From the sequence record NC_133255.1: a DNA stretch of 64,000 nucleotides. The stretch is one strand, 5' to 3'. Positions 2,800 to 61,080 of the stretch are shown here, in pieces. Both the position numbers and the translations under genes were made by a program. Under the pieces are notes generated by a model. That model made no database searches and was not told the origin of the DNA. It worked only from the letters and a program-made list of their open reading frames with translations. Position 1 is the stretch's first letter. Each line of letters starts with the position of its first letter. The DNA is from Escherichia phage vB_EcoS-26175I.

Positions 2800-4893
2800 C
2801 TATCCGCTTTTTTTTATTATGACCGCCGGGCCGAAAGCGCCATCACGGCCCGAAAATACGCGCCCCCGGGCTTCACTCTCACATGACATATTGCCATCAG
2901 AGTCTATCGCCAAAATAGCCTGTTTAAGTACGCCACCGATTCTGGATACTGCTGATATGCGAGTCACCACCACTGACGACCCTTTCGTCGCAGCCACGGA
3001 CATCGACGCATCGGCGATATTAACGCCGTTTTCGGATAGTCGGCTAGTCAGCCACCCGCCCGCCGTAGCCCCCGCAGGTAGAACAGTCTCCTTATGTACG
3101 ACCTGCAACGTGTCCTGGATATTAGGGTTAGTCACCTTTTCCAGAACCCAGCCACGCGTCGCGGCATCCATCTCGCTAACTGGATCTGCTGCTAACGGCG
3201 TGGCACCTATTGGGCGGACGTTAAGCCAAGCAGCGGCGCGGTCTGCGAGATCGCTCAAGTTATTTGCTTTCTTGAGTACATCTGAAGAAGCTGGAACTTC
3301 TAGGGCAGTTCTAGCCTCTTCTACTGTAGAAGCTCCGGTACCACCTTTATTTATCGGGATAATATCTTCGGTAGAAGCTTCTCCAAGTCCTAAAACTGAT
3401 CTTGCAGTTTCAATAGTAGAAGCTCCGGTACCACCTTTATTTATTGGGATAATATCTTCTACAGAGGCTTCTCCAAGTCCTAAAGCTGATCTTGCAGTCT
3501 CAATAGTAGAAGCACCAGTACCTCCTTTAGCTACAGGTAAAATTCCCTCAAAACTATCTGCAGAAATGGCAATATTAACAGAACCATCTGCAGAAGGTCC
3601 AATCCCATTAACCATAGTAATATACGGAATTTGTTCTTTAATAGCACCAGCGTTTTCCTCGCCTTTTGCAGCAGCACGGAATGCTTGACCCTGCATCATA
3701 TCAGGTAGACGGAAAGTAGTAGTACCATTACCAGTGGAGAAATAGAGAGTTGCACCAGCTTGCCATTGTTCCTCAGTAACCGAAGGGATTAAGCCAGCTT
3801 CAATAGCTTCCCAAGTATCTGGGTAGTCTACACGTAGAACCTCACGACCATCAGCAGGAAGAACACCAGGGTACCCAACGCCTGAATCCTTATCATAAGG
3901 GAACCAAGTAACTTCACCTAACCACAGAGAAGGATTACCACCAGGAAGAGTAATCTGTATGTTACCTACATCATCTGCACGAACGTTATTAATAGAAACT
4001 ATCTTTTGCTCTGCCTCTACTAACTCTAATTCTGGAGTCTCAGCAGTTCCAGCTACTTTGTACCACCCATATTTTGAGTCAGTTTGGTTCCATACTAGGA
4101 TCTTTTCACCTAGTGCGCGACTACTAACGTCAGTATCCGCTTCTTCTTTGGTCTTGTAGACTTTGATAAAGCCAGATATATCTTCTTTATCCAGTTTGCT
4201 ATCTACAATCTGAGATGCGCGATCGGCTTCAGCCTTAGCACGATTTGCCTCAGTAGTAGCAGTTTCAGCTTGGGTTTCCGCTTCCACTTCTGATGTTGCG
4301 GCATTGGTTTCAGAAGTTTTAGCATTTAATTCAGATTGTTTAGCGGCTGCAGCATGTTCCCCAGCAGTACTAGCTGATGCCTCAGCACTAGTTTCAGCTG
4401 TTTCAGCCCCAGTTCTTGCAGTCTCTGCCGCTATTTGAGCAGTTTGAGCAGCAGATTTAGCTTGTTCAGCAAGCCTACGACTAGTCTCAGCATTCTGAGC
4501 AGCTAGTTCAGCAGAATCTCTAAATCCTTTAGATTCTTCCGCAGATAGTGCGGATGCTTCTGCACTCTTCTGTGATAGTCCCGCTTGTCTCTCCGCTTCG
4601 GTAGCAGAAGCAGCAGACTGGGTTGCTGAGATTTCAGAAGCACCAGCATGAATACCAGCCTGAATTTCTGAATATTTAGCTTTATTCTCTGAGTCTTTAG
4701 CTGCTATTTCAGAATCTTCTGCTGCCGCAGCAGAAGCAGCAGAGGCTTCTACAGCAGCAGTTAATTCACCAGCAGTAATAGAACTAATAGAATTACCTAA
4801 AACTACTGTATATTTAGGATACTTACTAGCAGTAGTTGTAGTGTCATCTATGTTCAGAATCTGCTGTACAATAATTTTAGTTTTAAGTGCCAT
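2800..4893 (-). CDS. L-shaped tail fibre protein, paralogue A (Ala/Glu-rich coiled N-terminal region, tandem 34-aa repeats)
   Basis: 697-aa ORF; repeated IPINKGGTGASTIETARSxLGLGEAS units; start overlaps stop of upstream collar gene at 4893. Confidence 0.65.
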   Translation of the reverse strand: MALKTKIIVQQILNIDDTTTTASKYPKYTVVLGNSISSITAGELTAAVEASAASAAAAEDSEIAAKDSENKAKYSEIQAGIHAGASEISATQSAASATEAERQAGLSQKSAEASALSAEESKGFRDSAELAAQNAETSRRLAEQAKSAAQTAQIAAETARTGAETAETSAEASASTAGEHAAAAKQSELNAKTSETNAATSEVEAETQAETATTEANRAKAEADRASQIVDSKLDKEDISGFIKVYKTKEEADTDVSSRALGEKILVWNQTDSKYGWYKVAGTAETPELELVEAEQKIVSINNVRADDVGNIQITLPGGNPSLWLGEVTWFPYDKDSGVGYPGVLPADGREVLRVDYPDTWEAIEAGLIPSVTEEQWQAGATLYFSTGNGTTTFRLPDMMQGQAFRAAAKGEENAGAIKEQIPYITMVNGIGPSADGSVNIAISADSFEGILPVAKGGTGASTIETARSALGLGEASVEDIIPINKGGTGASTIETARSVLGLGEASTEDIIPINKGGTGASTVEEARTALEVPASSDVLKKANNLSDLADRAAAWLNVRPIGATPLAADPVSEMDAATRGWVLEKVTNPNIQDTLQVVHKETVLPAGATAGGWLTSRLSENGVNIADASMSVAATKGSSVVVTRISAVSRIGGVLKQAILAIDSDGNMSCESEARGRVFSGRDGAFGPAVIIKKSG

Positions 4894-57886: not shown

Positions 57887-57905
57887 ATGAATTTTTTAAA
57901 TTTGA

Positions 57906-57977
57906 TGCTCCCACCAGGAATCGAACCCAGTTCAGATGCTTACAAGGCAACTGCATCGCCAGCAATGCTTTAGGAGC
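57906..57977 (-). tRNA. tRNA-Thr (anticodon TGT)
   Basis: Hand fold: acceptor GCTCCTA/TGGGAGC, T-arm CTGGG-TTCGATT-CCTGG, anticodon loop CTTGTAA; CCA not encoded. Confidence 0.7.
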
Positions 57978-58143
57978 ATTAACCCGTTATTTCAACGGGA
58001 TTTCTTTTTCATATACAGGAGACTTATCAGACATTACTGTCCTAGCCAACTGCTGTAGAAATTCGAAGGAGAGTTTTAAACGTTCTTCACCCAACTCAAC
58101 CTCAACGCACTTCATTTGTTTATCAACCTTTAGCTTTAGATTA

Positions 58144-58933: not shown

Positions 58934-59010
58934 TGGGGTGACTAGTGGAATTCGAATCCACATAGGCCTGATTCACAATCAGGATCATTAACCAATTATG
59001 ATATAGCCAC
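58934..59010 (-). tRNA. tRNA-His (anticodon GTG)
   Basis: Hand fold: acceptor GTGGCTA/TAGTCAC, discriminator C73, anticodon stem CCTGA/TCAGG loop TTGTGAA, T-arm GTGGA-TTCGAAT-TCCAC, CCA encoded. Confidence 0.8.
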
Positions 59011-59191
59011 AATTGAAATCTCTAGTTATCCCTTTCGTAGGGGCTAAAGGGCGATACCCATCCTAAAGACTTCAATTGTGGCGGCTCTCCGAAACTCATC
59101 ACACTAACAACTAGTTGATTACTTCTGGATTCTCGCCCAGAAAATTCTCTAGAAAGGTGCACCGTTACTCTTTGAGCCATTGAATATCAAG

Positions 59192-59300
59192 AAGTAGAAG
59201 GACTCGAACCTTCACGAGATAGACCATTTATCTCAGCCTCGTTTTCGGGTATCTTATGAGGAGTGGATGTTCCCCTTACGCCCTTTAGGAAGCCCCGTCT
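59192..59300 (-). ncRNA. tRNA-like element, unresolved (~107 nt)
   Basis: Contains a canonical T-arm (GAAGG-TTCGAGT-CCTTC) and a Leu/Tyr-type D-arm (GCCGGAATCGGTAGACGG) closed by a 6-bp terminal stem GAAGTA/TACTTC, but I could not place a canonical anticodon arm. Confidence 0.4.
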
Positions 59301-59305
59301 ACCGA

Positions 59306-59395
59306 TTCCGGCATACTTCAAGATTTGGCAGAAGATAATGGAGTCGAACCATCACCGTATCACTACAGCGGGCCGGTTTTCAAGACCGGTTACGT
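59306..59395 (-). tRNA. tRNA-Ser (anticodon TGA), long variable arm
   Basis: Hand fold: acceptor AGAAGAT/ATCTTCT, anticodon stem CCGGT/ACCGG loop CTTGAAA, 19-nt variable arm, T-arm GATGG-TTCGACT-CCATT, CCA encoded. Confidence 0.75.
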
Positions 59396-59413
59396 ACCAC
59401 TACGTCCTATCTT

Positions 59414-59770
59414 CTATTGTTCGTATATTACAAAGTTTACAGATTCAGAGTAATAACCATTACTAGAACCATGCCATTTAACGGTTACACAGCCTTTAGC
59501 TGTGGCAAACTTATACCATGTATGGGTTACTGAATCCCAATCTTCTGTAGCGTGTGTGATTACTTCCTCTGCTTCTATGATTGGATAACCTAAAAGGTCA
59601 TGTAAATCACCAATAATATCATCTATATGAACATCTTCACAGCAGTCCTGCTCATGATAAAACTTATAGTTCTTACCATCAGTACAAATGAAGATAAGAG
59701 TATCTTGGTCTTGGCATACATTAGTAAAAATTTTGCCAAGCATTTCATTATAGATTGTCACTTCTGACAT
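59414..59770 (-). CDS. hypothetical acidic protein
   Basis: 118-aa ORF. Confidence 0.5.
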   Translation of the reverse strand: MSEVTIYNEMLGKIFTNVCQDQDTLIFICTDGKNYKFYHEQDCCEDVHIDDIIGDLHDLLGYPIIEAEEVITHATEDWDSVTHTWYKFATAKGCVTVKWHGSSNGYYSESVNFVIYEQ

Positions 59771-60815: not shown

Positions 60816-61080
60816 AGATATTCCTTCTAGTTTACTAAGGCTATTAGCTCGGTGTGCGTATTACCCTCAGACATTAGCCAGTAGAGGATAACCGCTCTTC
60901 ACAAACCCGATACACTATTCAGTTGCCGCTGAATCTAGTGGACTAATCTAGAACTTATTGCAAAGTATCCCCTGCCATTAGGGGTCTAATTGCAATTGTG
61001 CTTTTTGGCAGCCAGTCCTAGGTCGAGCTAATACCTTAGTGAACTTTGATGAGGATTTCTCCTCATCAATTTATATAAAT

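What the first reader, a model, noticed from the sequence alone, without database searches (positions are those of the whole stretch)
59192..59300. 107-nt tRNA-like element with canonical D- and T-arms but no recognisable anticodon arm
The element is closed by a perfect 6-bp terminal stem (GAAGTA/TACTTC) and contains a Leu/Tyr-type D-arm and a canonical T-arm, but the ~45 nt between them do not fold into a standard anticodon stem-loop. Candidates: a small stable RNA derived from a tRNA, a tRNA with an inserted element, or a decayed tRNA gene.
Basis: seen in the sequence. Interest (0 to 1): 0.55.

Follow-up and report, generated by a model that had tools for sequence, protein, structure and literature searches.

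The report
Known T5 tRNA-like stable RNA (RNA1)
The element is this T5-like phage's copy of "RNA1", a tRNA-shaped small RNA annotated in phage T5 about twenty years ago whose function is still unknown; it is real and conserved, but it is 129 nt rather than 107 nt and it does have an anticodon stem.

Summary
The window is a T5-like coliphage. It is 100% identical to Escherichia phage vB_EcoS-26175II over the 1,001 bases compared.

**What is there.** The element lies on the minus strand at 59319..59191 and is 129 nt long. It is not 107 nt, and it does not end at 59300.

**Identity.** It is the ortholog of T5 rna1, annotated as "RNA1: tRNA-like stable RNA with unknown functions" in AY543070, and also annotated in BF23 and Salmonella phage 5. 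It sits in the same place: tRNA-Ser(UGA) – RNA1 – RNA I – RNA III – tRNA-His.

**Structure.** Across 29 distinct homologs, 7 helices hold: 98.6% of cells are paired, and 14 pairs show compensatory changes.
- The body is a tRNA-Leu-type cloverleaf with a 6-bp acceptor, a Leu-type D-arm, a long variable arm and a T-arm.
- A 5-bp anticodon stem is present. Instead of a 7-nt loop it closes a structured 48-nt insert: two further helices and an invariant ACAUCCAC loop.

**What it is not.**
- Not a decoding tRNA: there is no conserved anticodon and no encoded CCA, whereas 20 of 21 tRNA genes in the window encode CCA.
- Not a decayed gene.
- Not coding.

**Function.** Unknown. My best inference is a tRNA mimic released by the tRNA-processing enzymes. 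The finding is already known, and interest is low to moderate.

The parts
59191..59319 (-). RNA1 core: the tRNA-like cloverleaf from the first to the last base of the 6-bp acceptor stem (129 nt)
   Evidence: Sequence read. Covariance model R1 scores 165.9 bits over 59183-59323. Structure counted.
59179..59322 (-). Extent equivalent to the annotated T5 rna1 (144 nt): the core, 3 nt of 5' leader (CUU) and 12 nt of 3' trailer up to the start of RNA I
   Evidence: blastn of T5 rna1 (AY543070 30501-30644) gives 80% identity over 145 columns, E 4e-31. T5, BF23 and phage 5 annotations.
59314..59319 (-). Acceptor stem, 5' strand (GAAGUA)
   Evidence: Pairs with 59191-59196. Four of the 6 pairs show changes on both sides, and the Klebsiella copies replace the whole stem yet keep 5 of 6 pairs. 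Two U·U mismatches follow, then 2-3 more pairs (59322-59323 with 59187-59188).
59191..59196 (-). Acceptor stem, 3' strand (UACUUC). It is followed by UUGAUAUUCAAU with no encoded CCA
59295..59311 (-). D-arm of tRNA-Leu type (CCG / GAAUCGGUAGA / CGG), preceded by U8-G9 equivalents at 59313-59312
   Evidence: Nearly invariant in 29 homologs. Same architecture as the window's tRNA-Leu(UAG). The best non-self hits of R1 are tRNA-Leu genes.
59289..59293 (-). Anticodon-stem equivalent, 5' strand (GCUUC)
   Evidence: Pairs with 59236-59240 (GAGGC). Three of the 5 pairs show changes on both sides (GC/AU, GC/UA, CG/GC).
59236..59240 (-). Anticodon-stem equivalent, 3' strand (GAGGC)
59241..59288 (-). 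48-nt structured insert in place of the 7-nt anticodon loop. It holds junction CCUAA, helix P2 (GGG 59283-59281 / CCC 59249-59247), an internal loop, helix P3 (GGGGA 59275-59271 / UCCUC 59262-59258) and junction GAAAAC
   Evidence: P2 has 2 of 3 pairs with changes on both sides and P3 has 3 of 6, with up to 4 pair types per position. RNAalifold predicts the same helices on its own.
59263..59270 (-). Apical 8-nt loop ACAUCCAC of the insert. It is invariant apart from one A-to-G change in T5 AY543070
59214..59235 (-). Long variable arm of class II tRNA type: stem GAGAUA 59234-59229 / UAUCUC 59221-59216, with an invariant 7-nt loop AAUGGUC at 59228-59222
   Evidence: Two of the 6 pairs show changes on both sides. 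The loop is invariant in all 29 homologs.
59197..59213 (-). T-arm GAAGG-UUCGAGU-CCUUC
   Evidence: All cells paired. Also picked up as the only 'terminator-like' hairpin in the simple scan.
59079..59178 (-). Neighbour: homolog of T5 RNA I (100 nt here, 107 nt in T5). Its ends are GGCUC...GAGCC-G-CCA
   Evidence: Alignment to the annotated T5, BF23 and phage 5 records. Fold.
59011..59074 (-). Neighbour: homolog of T5 RNA III, about 40 nt shorter than in T5 (106 nt). It forms a long hairpin ending at the first base of tRNA-His
   Evidence: z = -3.86 for 59011-59078.
59326..59415 (-). Upstream tRNA-Ser(UGA). Its CCA ends 6 nt before the RNA1 acceptor stem
58934..59010 (-). Downstream tRNA-His(GUG), which closes the conserved module

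Best explanation
The element is this phage's ortholog of bacteriophage T5 RNA1 (gene rna1). RNA1 is a non-decoding, tRNA-derived small RNA that is kept under selection in T5-like phages (Demerecviridae).

Anatomy (shown here). It is a tRNA-Leu-type cloverleaf, a class II tRNA with a long variable arm. It has a 6-bp acceptor stem, U8/G9, a 3-bp Leu-type D-stem with the GG elbow residues, a 5-bp anticodon stem, a 21-nt variable arm and a canonical T-arm. The 7-nt anticodon loop is replaced by a 48-nt insert. The insert extends the anticodon arm by two more helices and ends in an invariant ACAUCCAC loop. The residues next to the insert (C-C-U-A-A-A ... A-A) line up with the CU-UAA-AA anticodon loop of tRNA-Leu(UAA). 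This points to descent from such a tRNA.

How it probably works (inferred).
1. It is transcribed from the minus strand as part of the early polycistronic tRNA transcript, between tRNA-Ser and RNA I / RNA III / tRNA-His.
2. It is cut out by the host tRNA-maturation enzymes. RNase P would cut at or near G59319, and it is presumed to make the 5' end of RNA I, which would define the RNA1 trailer.
3. It folds into an L-shape from which an over-long arm projects.
4. It cannot read codons, and it is unlikely to be charged.
5. My best guess for its role is a tRNA mimic. It would engage a tRNA-recognising host or phage factor through the conserved elbow and present the two invariant loops (ACAUCCAC and AAUGGUC) as the specific contact surface.

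My confidence by step: identity with T5 RNA1 about 0.95; functional, structured and non-decoding about 0.85; the mimic/decoy mechanism about 0.3.
For: Identity and synteny.
- The homologous stretch is annotated misc_RNA rna1, 'tRNA-like (stable) RNA with unknown functions', in phage 5, BF23 and T5. It lies between tRNA-Ser(UGA) and rnaI / rnaIII / tRNA-His.
- T5 rna1 aligns to window 59322..59179 at 80% identity, E 4e-31.
- The same module is present in Pectobacterium phage DU_PP_V.

Distribution.
- 491 of 50,697 phage records hold it. Every record whose lineage I read is Demerecviridae.
- 24 IMG/VR contigs (22 of them 100-121 kb) and 9 metagenome contigs hold it. Representative bacterial genomes hold none.

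Structure.
- 34 pairs in 7 helices are 98.6% paired across 29 distinct sequences.
- 14 pairs show changes on both sides, against at most 3 when partners are slid by 1-3 columns and 0 of 500 shuffles reaching that number.
- RNAalifold recovers the same helices except the invariant D-stem.
- Unpaired columns are more conserved than paired ones: 34% versus 56% variable.

tRNA-Leu ancestry. The best non-self hits of covariance model R1 are the window's tRNA-Leu(UAG) (35.7 bits) and T4 tRNA-Leu(UAA) (36.3 bits). In the T4 alignment the insert is treated as a 41-nt deletion and the junction residues fall on the anticodon loop.

Non-decoding.
- Default ARAGORN and Rfam find nothing here, at gathering threshold or at E up to 10.
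- ARAGORN with introns allowed assigns Phe(aaa), Met(cat), Leu(taa) or Val(aac), with different 'intron' positions, to different homologs.
- No CCA is encoded in any homolog, while 20 of 21 tRNA genes in the window encode it.

Not coding. The overlapping 44-aa ORF is broken by stop codons in 20 of 29 homologs.
Against: - No expression or end-mapping data exist for this phage. 'Stable RNA' rests on the GenBank annotation of T5, and I could not retrieve the primary papers.
- The single-sequence fold is not unusually stable (z = -0.91).
- The 29 sequences fall into only 4-5 clades, so the compensatory changes reflect few independent events.
- The D-stem is invariant. It cannot be told apart from an alternative local hairpin by covariation.
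- Nothing here identifies a binding partner, so the mimic/decoy role is inference from the conservation pattern only.
- The Klebsiella phage copies have a closing stem of at least 14 bp instead of a tRNA-like acceptor. This weakens the assumption that RNase P releases the RNA in the same way everywhere.
Confidence: 0.6

Rival explanations
1. It is a real tRNA-Leu(UAA) gene, or another isoacceptor, interrupted by a short intron. The intron is removed to give a decoding tRNA.
For:
- GenBank OK272480 annotates its copy as tRNA-Leu(taa), 134 nt.
- The junction residues resemble a CU-UAA-AA loop.
Against: - The predicted anticodon and intron position differ between close homologs: Phe(aaa) at 35, 36 or 37, Met(cat) at 34, Leu(taa) at 33, Val(aac) at 39.
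- The insert is far too short for a group I intron. Established knowledge: bacterial and phage tRNA introns are self-splicing group I introns of about 200 nt or more. Bacteria have no bulge-helix-bulge splicing endonuclease.
- The insert's own helices covary and its loop is invariant.
- There is no encoded CCA, the acceptor stem is 6 bp, and the base after it is U, not the A73 that E. coli LeuRS requires (the LeuRS identity rule is from my own knowledge).
Confidence: 0.05
2. It is a decayed tRNA pseudogene, or a neutral spacer left over in the tRNA cluster, with no function of its own.
For: - It is not detected by standard tRNA or Rfam models.
- The function has been listed as unknown since the original annotation.
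[quoted passage not shown] I could not read it.
Against: - 14 base pairs carry compensatory double changes, and two loops are invariant.
- It is retained in 491 phage records. These include Markadamsvirinae (Tequintavirus), the genus Sugarlandvirus and Pectobacterium phage DU_PP_V.
- The Klebsiella phages keep a 93%-identical core in a different genomic context.
Confidence: 0.05
3. It is mainly a cis-acting processing or punctuation element. A tRNA-shaped module recruits RNase P and other tRNA-processing enzymes so that the adjacent RNA I, RNA III and tRNA-His are released correctly from the polycistronic transcript. The excised RNA1 is then a by-product.
For: - It is always found directly upstream of RNA I, RNA III and tRNA-His in Tequintavirus, in the window's group and in DU_PP_V.
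- The annotated RNA1 3' end coincides with the 5' end of RNA I.
- The acceptor sequence is free to vary as long as it pairs.
Against: - A processing signal would not need an invariant 8-nt apical loop, an invariant variable-arm loop, and covarying helices inside the insert.
- In Klebsiella phages the element occurs without recognisable RNA I or RNA III homologs.
Confidence: 0.15
4. It is a trans-acting base-pairing regulator. One or both invariant loops pair with a phage or host RNA.
For: Two single-stranded loops of 7-8 nt are invariant across all homologs.
Against: - Complements of the loops are not enriched in the window: ACAUCCAC with up to 1 mismatch gives 39 matches against 39.1 expected.
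- Exact complements occur at chance level, and none lies in the neighbouring RNAs.
- No conserved complementarity to RNA I or RNA III was seen by eye. Only 64 kb of the phage, and no host RNA, could be scanned.
Confidence: 0.1

Closest known systems
Bacteriophage T5 / BF23 / Salmonella phage 5 RNA1 (gene rna1; AY543070 30501-30644, AY692264, NC_042564, AJ604531)
   Same: It is the same locus. The position is the same (tRNA-Ser(UGA) – RNA1 – RNA I – RNA III – tRNA-His). Sequence identity is 80-87%. The seven helices and the invariant loops are the same.
   Different: - The window's allele differs in the junctions and helices of the insert, where the changes are compensated.
- The small ORF T5.063 / trn2.14, which precedes rna1 in T5, BF23 and phage 5, is absent here.
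- The downstream RNA III is about 40 nt shorter.
Class II tRNA-Leu, especially tRNA-Leu(UAA) (phage T4 tRNA-Leu; the window's own tRNA-Leu(UAG))
   Same: The U8-G9, the 3-bp D-stem with an 11-nt D-loop containing GG, the long variable arm, the T-arm and the 5-bp anticodon stem all match. The junction residues align with the CU-UAA-AA loop. The best non-self hits of model R1 are 35.7 and 36.3 bits.
   Different: - A 48-nt structured insert replaces the anticodon loop.
- The acceptor stem is 6 bp and is followed by U·U mismatches.
- No CCA is encoded, and U follows the acceptor strand.
- It fails the Rfam tRNA model and default ARAGORN.
Phage T4 species 1 and species 2 RNAs (rnaC, rnaD)
   Same: They are small stable RNAs of unknown function encoded at the end of a phage tRNA cluster. 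rnaC carries a tRNA-like T-arm and acceptor-like stem. PMC9697503 still lists their function as unknown.
   Different: There is no convincing homology. R1 scores only 10.7 bits on rnaC, E 0.009 in a 1.8-kb search. The architectures differ. This is an analogy, not shared family membership.
tRNA mimics whose anticodon arm is replaced by a long helix (tmRNA tRNA-like domain; bacterial YrlA / Y-RNA-like RNAs)
   Same: The concept is the same: an acceptor/T-arm/elbow module keeps recognition by tRNA enzymes, while the anticodon side is extended into a non-decoding helix. This comparison rests on my own knowledge of these families.
   Different: - There is no tag reading frame, no pseudoknots and no alanine-identity G3·U70.
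- Default ARAGORN finds no tmRNA and Rfam finds nothing.
- YrlA has its termini in the long stem (a permuted layout) and a Ro-binding site; here the termini are at the acceptor stem.

Membership tests
T5-type RNA1 (rna1) tRNA-like stable RNA | Sequence homology to the annotated rna1 of T5, BF23 and phage 5 | tested here: met
   80% identity over 145 columns to T5 rna1, E 4e-31. 87% to phage 5 and 80.6% to BF23, with rna1 listed under the match. R1 scores 165.9 bits.
T5-type RNA1 (rna1) tRNA-like stable RNA | Position in the tRNA gene region: downstream of tRNA-Ser(UGA), directly upstream of RNA I, RNA III and tRNA-His | tested here: met
   Same order in DU_PP_V.
T5-type RNA1 (rna1) tRNA-like stable RNA | Shared secondary structure: cloverleaf with an extended anticodon arm | tested here: met
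   34 pairs, 98.6% paired, 14 with changes on both sides. Independent RNAalifold consensus.
T5-type RNA1 (rna1) tRNA-like stable RNA | Accumulates as a discrete stable RNA in infected cells | not testable with these tools
   Only the GenBank note for T5 ('tRNA-like stable RNA'). There are no RNA data for this phage.
Canonical tRNA (Rfam RF00005 / ARAGORN) | Scores above threshold with tRNA covariance or heuristic models | tested here: not met
   No Rfam hit at gathering threshold or at E up to 10. Default ARAGORN finds none in the window copy or in the 29 homologs.
Canonical tRNA (Rfam RF00005 / ARAGORN) | A 7-nt anticodon loop with a conserved anticodon | tested here: not met
   A 48-nt insert sits between the strands of the anticodon stem. 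The 'anticodons' assigned with introns allowed differ among homologs.
Canonical tRNA (Rfam RF00005 / ARAGORN) | A 7-bp acceptor stem with a discriminator and 3' CCA (encoded in this phage's tRNA genes) | tested here: not met
   The acceptor stem is 6 bp and is followed by U·U mismatches. No CCA is encoded, while 20 of 21 tRNA genes in the window encode it.
Canonical tRNA (Rfam RF00005 / ARAGORN) | D-arm and T-arm with the elbow residues (G18 G19; U54 U55 C56) | tested here: met
   GAAUCGGUAGA D-loop and UUCGAGU T-loop, nearly invariant.
Intron-containing tRNA (group I or bulge-helix-bulge type) | An intron of a known splicing class at a fixed position, whose removal restores the same anticodon loop in all homologs | tested here: not met
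   The insert is 48 nt, too short for group I. The predicted intron positions (33-39) and anticodons (aaa, cat, taa, aac) are inconsistent. The insert's helices and loop are under selection.
tmRNA | A tRNA-like domain plus a tag-peptide reading frame and pseudoknots | tested here: not met
   Default ARAGORN finds no tmRNA. Rfam finds none. Only a meaningless permuted call appears at a lowered threshold.
T4 species 1 RNA (rnaC) | Homology to T4 rnaC | tested here: inconclusive
   R1 gives 10.7 bits, E 0.009, on the 3' part of rnaC in a 1.8-kb search. The shared parts are generic tRNA features.

The most novel reading that the evidence does not exclude
RNA1 is a dedicated trans-acting tRNA mimic, a phage effector RNA. 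It keeps a tRNA-Leu elbow to be taken for a tRNA. Its elongated arm and its two invariant loops (ACAUCCAC and AAUGGUC) would capture or mislead a specific tRNA-recognising protein. Candidates are a host tRNA-targeting defence nuclease, a synthetase, or a modification or processing enzyme. That would make the conserved RNA1 – RNA I – RNA III module a set of non-coding counter-defence or takeover RNAs rather than leftovers of the tRNA cluster. The evidence here does not exclude this: there is strong selection on non-decoding features, and a near-identical core is shared between Klebsiella and Salmonella/E. coli phage genera. But nothing here points to a particular partner.
Probability: 0.2. Interest if true: 0.65.

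Novelty: already known. Interest (0 to 1): 0.28.

Why it matters
As a discovery it does not matter much. The RNA has been annotated in the T5, BF23 and phage 5 tRNA-region records (accession series from 2004) and is simply left out of most modern T5-like genome annotations. Of the 60 records listed, only 2 name it as RNA1 and one mislabels it tRNA-Leu.

Three points are still useful.
- The analysis gives a covariation-supported structure, which I did not find in any paper I could search.
- That structure shows the RNA is under selection for features unrelated to decoding. This keeps open an old small question: what T5 RNA1, RNA I and RNA III, and T4 RNAC and RNAD, actually do. The question has become more relevant now that phage tRNAs are known to counter tRNA-cleaving defences.
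- Annotators should not call this element tRNA-Leu, tRNA-Phe or a hypothetical protein.

Tried and rejected
- **Standard detectors.** Default ARAGORN and Rfam (gathering threshold and E up to 10) found nothing at the element.
- **ARAGORN with introns or lowered thresholds.** It gave a 'tRNA-Phe(aaa) with intron' and a spurious permuted tmRNA. I rejected both because the calls are inconsistent across homologs.
- **Coding reading.** The 44-aa ORF at 59187..59321(-) is broken by stop codons in 20 of 29 homologs.
- **Terminator reading.** The only terminator-like hit is the T-arm itself, against 1.8 hits expected by chance.
- **Own promoter.** Promoter-like sites occur at chance level, and none is positioned for RNA1.
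- **Base-pairing targets of the invariant loops.** No enrichment in the window.
- **Loop-loop kissing.** Pairing between the two invariant loops is at most 3 bp (UGG/CCA), too weak to claim.
- **Known motifs in the insert's internal loops.** I looked by eye for a kink-turn or loop E. The required G·A pairs are not conserved.
- **All-against-all covariation scan for tertiary pairs.** It was dominated by clade effects. One candidate (alignment columns 45/83, G:C to U:A) reflects a single event.
- **Bacterial origin.** No match in 185,579 representative genomes with a specific gapped pattern.
- **IMG/VR scan with a 14-mer.** It returned mostly chance hits. A gapped pattern worked.
- **Literature.** No accessible paper describes RNA1. 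The Ksenzenko-group papers are not in the library.
- **Homology to T4 rnaC/rnaD.** Only a weak, generic match.
Full report
**Source and location.** The window is a T5-like coliphage. A 1-kb stretch around the finding is 100% identical to Escherichia phage vB_EcoS-26175II and 97-99% identical to Salmonella phages such as JNwz02, Sepoy and Stitch. All 21 tRNA genes in the window lie on the minus strand between 57.1 and 64.0 kb. The finding lies between tRNA-Ser(UGA) (59326-59415) and tRNA-His (58934-59010).

**Checking the observation.**
- On the + strand, GAAGTA is at 59191-59196 and TACTTC at 59314-59319.
- Read on the minus strand, the element runs from G59319 to C59191.
- The D-arm (UG-CCG-GAAUCGGUAGA-CGG-G) and the T-arm (GAAGG-UUCGAGU-CCUUC) are as described.
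- The stretch between them is 81 nt rather than about 45 nt.
- 107 nt is the annotated length of the adjacent T5 RNA I. I suspect the figure was recalled rather than counted.
- Default ARAGORN and Rfam find nothing at the element, at gathering thresholds or at E up to 10.
- The single-sequence fold is unremarkable (-38.1 kcal/mol, z = -0.91). Any claim that this is more than chance has to rest on comparison with other sequences.

**Identity.**
- A sensitive blastn of the element finds homologs in 491 of 50,697 phage records. They are phages of Salmonella, Escherichia, Klebsiella, Citrobacter, Pectobacterium, Yersinia and Shigella, and every record whose lineage I read is Demerecviridae.
- In the records curated by the group that sequenced the T5 tRNA region, the matching stretch is a misc_RNA, gene rna1. 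It is described as 'RNA1, tRNA-like RNA with unknown functions' (Salmonella phage 5 AJ604531; BF23 NC_042564) or 'tRNA-like stable RNA with unknown functions' (T5 AY543070; also AY692264).
- In all of them it is followed directly by rnaI (107 nt), rnaIII (106 nt) and tRNA-His, and preceded by tRNA-Ser(UGA). This is the arrangement in the window.
- T5 rna1 (144 nt) aligns to window 59322..59179 at 80% identity, E 4e-31.
- Most modern annotations leave the stretch blank. A few place a hypothetical protein on it, and one (JLBYU40) calls it tRNA-Leu(taa), 134 nt.
- A specific gapped pattern finds the element in 24 IMG/VR contigs, 22 of them 100-121 kb. It also finds it in 9 metagenome contigs, and in none of 185,579 representative bacterial and archaeal genomes.
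- The same tRNA-Ser – RNA1 – RNA I – RNA III – tRNA-His module is present in Pectobacterium phage DU_PP_V, the most divergent homolog found.

**Structure.** I aligned 29 distinct homologs, almost without gaps (A2), and counted a structure proposed from the sequence. Coordinates below are on the minus strand.

| Helix | 5' strand | 3' strand |
|---|---|---|
| Acceptor | 59319-59314 | 59196-59191 |
| D-stem | 59311-59309 | 59297-59295 |
| Anticodon stem | 59293-59289 | 59240-59236 |
| Insert helix P2 | 59283-59281 | 59249-59247 |
| Insert helix P3 | 59276-59271 | 59262-59257 |
| Variable arm | 59234-59229 | 59221-59216 |
| T-stem | 59213-59209 | 59201-59197 |

- Of 986 cells, 98.6% form standard pairs.
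- 14 of 34 pairs have changes on both sides. When the 3' partners are slid by 1-3 columns there are at most 3 such pairs and 42-53% pairing. None of 500 shuffles reaches the observed number of pairs with changes on both sides or the observed covariation score.
- The anticodon-stem equivalent reads GCUUC/GAGGC here, GCUGC/GCGGC in phage 5 and ACUGC/GCGGU in T5 and BF23.
- P3 shows up to four pair types at one position.
- The Klebsiella copies replace all six acceptor pairs yet keep five of them paired.
- RNAalifold independently predicts the same helices, except the invariant D-stem, and adds two closing pairs beyond two U·U mismatches.
- Unpaired columns are more conserved than paired ones (34% versus 56% variable). 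The insert's apical loop ACAUCCAC (59270-59263) and the variable-arm loop AAUGGUC (59228-59222) are essentially invariant.
- Caveat: the sequences fall into only 4-5 clades, so the number of independent substitution events is small.

**What kind of tRNA it derives from.**
- A covariance model built from the alignment (R1) finds no paralog in the window.
- Its best non-self hits are the window's tRNA-Leu(UAG) (35.7 bits) and T4 tRNA-Leu(UAA) (36.3 bits), ahead of tRNA-Ser.
- In the T4 alignment the model deletes 41 nt of the insert. The junction residues (CuAAa...Aa) fall on the CU-UAA-AA anticodon loop.
- The D-arm has the same 3-bp stem and 11-nt loop as the phage's tRNA-Leu.
- So the scaffold is a class II tRNA-Leu whose 7-nt anticodon loop has been replaced by a structured 48-nt insert (59288-59241).

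**Why it is not a decoding tRNA.**
- With introns allowed, ARAGORN calls a tRNA in all 29 homologs, but the calls disagree: Phe(aaa) with the 'intron' at position 35, 36 or 37, Met(cat) at 34, Leu(taa) at 33, and Val(aac) at 39.
- The insert is too short for a group I intron. Its helices and loop are themselves conserved.
- Twenty of the 21 tRNA genes in the window encode 3' CCA. RNA1 does not, in any homolog; the acceptor strand is followed by UUGAUA.
- The acceptor stem is 6 bp. The base after it is U rather than the A73 that E. coli LeuRS needs (that identity rule is my own knowledge).
- In Klebsiella phages the closing stem runs on for at least 14 bp.

**Why it is not coding.** The overlapping 44-aa ORF is interrupted by stop codons in 20 of 29 homologs.

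**Why it is not a decayed gene.** The compensatory changes, the invariant loops and its retention across Tequintavirus, Sugarlandvirus and the Pectobacterium phage DU_PP_V all argue against decay.

**Mechanism.**
- Shown: the anatomy, the conservation pattern, the position inside a tRNA cluster with no promoter of its own above chance, and the match between the annotated RNA1 3' end and the RNA I 5' end.
- Inferred: RNA1 is co-transcribed with the tRNAs and released by RNase P and the 3'-processing nucleases. It then folds into an L-shape with an over-long arm.
- Selection acts on the elbow, on the helices of the insert and on two loops. It does not act on the acceptor sequence, a CCA end or an anticodon. 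I therefore think the most likely role is a tRNA mimic that engages a tRNA-recognising factor and contacts it through the invariant loops (about 0.3).
- A cis-acting processing role (about 0.15) and a base-pairing role (about 0.1) are the main alternatives.
- I found no enrichment of loop complements in the window, no convincing loop-loop pairing and no known motif in the internal loops.

**Comparison with known systems.**
- It is a member of the T5 RNA1 family. Homology, synteny and structure were all tested and met. Expression could not be tested.
- It works like, but is not a member of, the canonical tRNAs: three defining features were tested and not met.
- It is analogous to T4 species 1 and 2 RNAs (rnaC, rnaD). 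These sit at the end of the T4 tRNA cluster and also have no known function. R1 gives only a weak, generic match to rnaC (10.7 bits).
- The idea of a tRNA body with the anticodon side turned into a long helix recalls the tmRNA tRNA-like domain and YrlA. None of their defining features is present.

**Verdict.** The element is already known as T5 RNA1. What this analysis adds is a covariation-supported structure and the argument that the RNA is under selection for a non-decoding role. Interest is low to moderate.

Noticed in passing
window 59079-59178 (-): Homolog of T5 RNA I (100 nt here, 107 nt in T5). Its ends form GGCUC/GAGCC followed by G-CCA, which is a tRNA-like acceptor end with an encoded CCA. 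In Pectobacterium phage DU_PP_V the stem reads GGGCC/GGCUC, so it covaries. The interior differs strongly from T5, while the segments GUAACGGUGC and GAGUUUC are conserved.
   Followed up: partly
window 59011-59074 (-): Homolog of T5 RNA III, but about 40 nt shorter (64-68 nt against 106 nt) and with a replaced interior. It folds into one long hairpin (z = -3.86) whose 3' end abuts the first base of tRNA-His.
   Followed up: partly
window 59320-59325, against T5/BF23/phage 5 (L001 1323-1496): The 57-aa ORF T5.063 / trn2.14, which lies between tRNA-Ser(UGA) and rna1 in T5, BF23 and phage 5, is absent here. Only 6 nt separate the tRNA-Ser CCA from the RNA1 stem.
   Followed up: no
window 59414-59770 (-): A 118-aa ORF with a DUF7448 domain (Pfam E 4.9e-26) lies between the two tRNA-Ser genes. 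In T5, BF23 and phage 5 those two genes are only 7 nt apart. The ORF's 3' end overlaps tRNA-Ser(UGA) by 2 nt.
   Followed up: partly
L139 (Klebsiella phage Sealy) 485-1107; L140: Sugarlandvirus phages of Klebsiella carry an RNA1 core 91-93% identical to the window's allele, closer than T5's 80%. The acceptor stem is completely different and the closing stem is at least 14 bp. The element sits in a different context: a 620-nt non-coding stretch after tRNA-Val, with no recognisable RNA I or RNA III, ending in a terminator-like hairpin. A second hairpin just downstream carries GCAUCCAC in its loop. This suggests horizontal transfer of the core, or very strong constraint on it.
   Followed up: partly
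window 59263-59270 (-): The invariant loop ACAUCCAC is identical, in the same sense, to an 8-nt stretch of E. coli 16S rRNA (UUGACAUCCACGG). I confirmed this against E. coli genomes. It is probably coincidence: an 8-mer has a chance of about 2% in 1.5 kb, and the comparison was made after the fact.
   Followed up: partly
window 57904-57978 (-): tRNA-Thr(UGU) is the only one of the 21 tRNA genes that does not encode CCA; its 3' end reads ...GGGAGCA-U-CAA. In the other 20 genes, CCA is followed by AA or AT.
   Followed up: no
window 60899-61033 (-): Partial homolog of T5 rna2H (78.5% identity over 135 columns, covering bases 1-113 of the 172-nt T5 RNA). rna2H is another 'stable RNA with unknown functions' of the T5 tRNA region.
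   Followed up: no
L154 (T4 NC_000866) 2909-3047: The 3' two-thirds of T4 species 1 RNA (rnaC) contains a tRNA-like T-arm (CCGGGUUCGAAUCCCGG), an acceptor-like stem and a D-loop-like GGAUAUGGU. It gives a weak hit to the RNA1 model (10.7 bits).
   Followed up: partly
L144 (T5 AY543070) rna1, against L143 (T5 st0 AY692264): The two T5 records differ by one base in the otherwise invariant loop (ACAUCCGC against ACAUCCAC). This is either a strain difference or a sequencing error.
   Followed up: no
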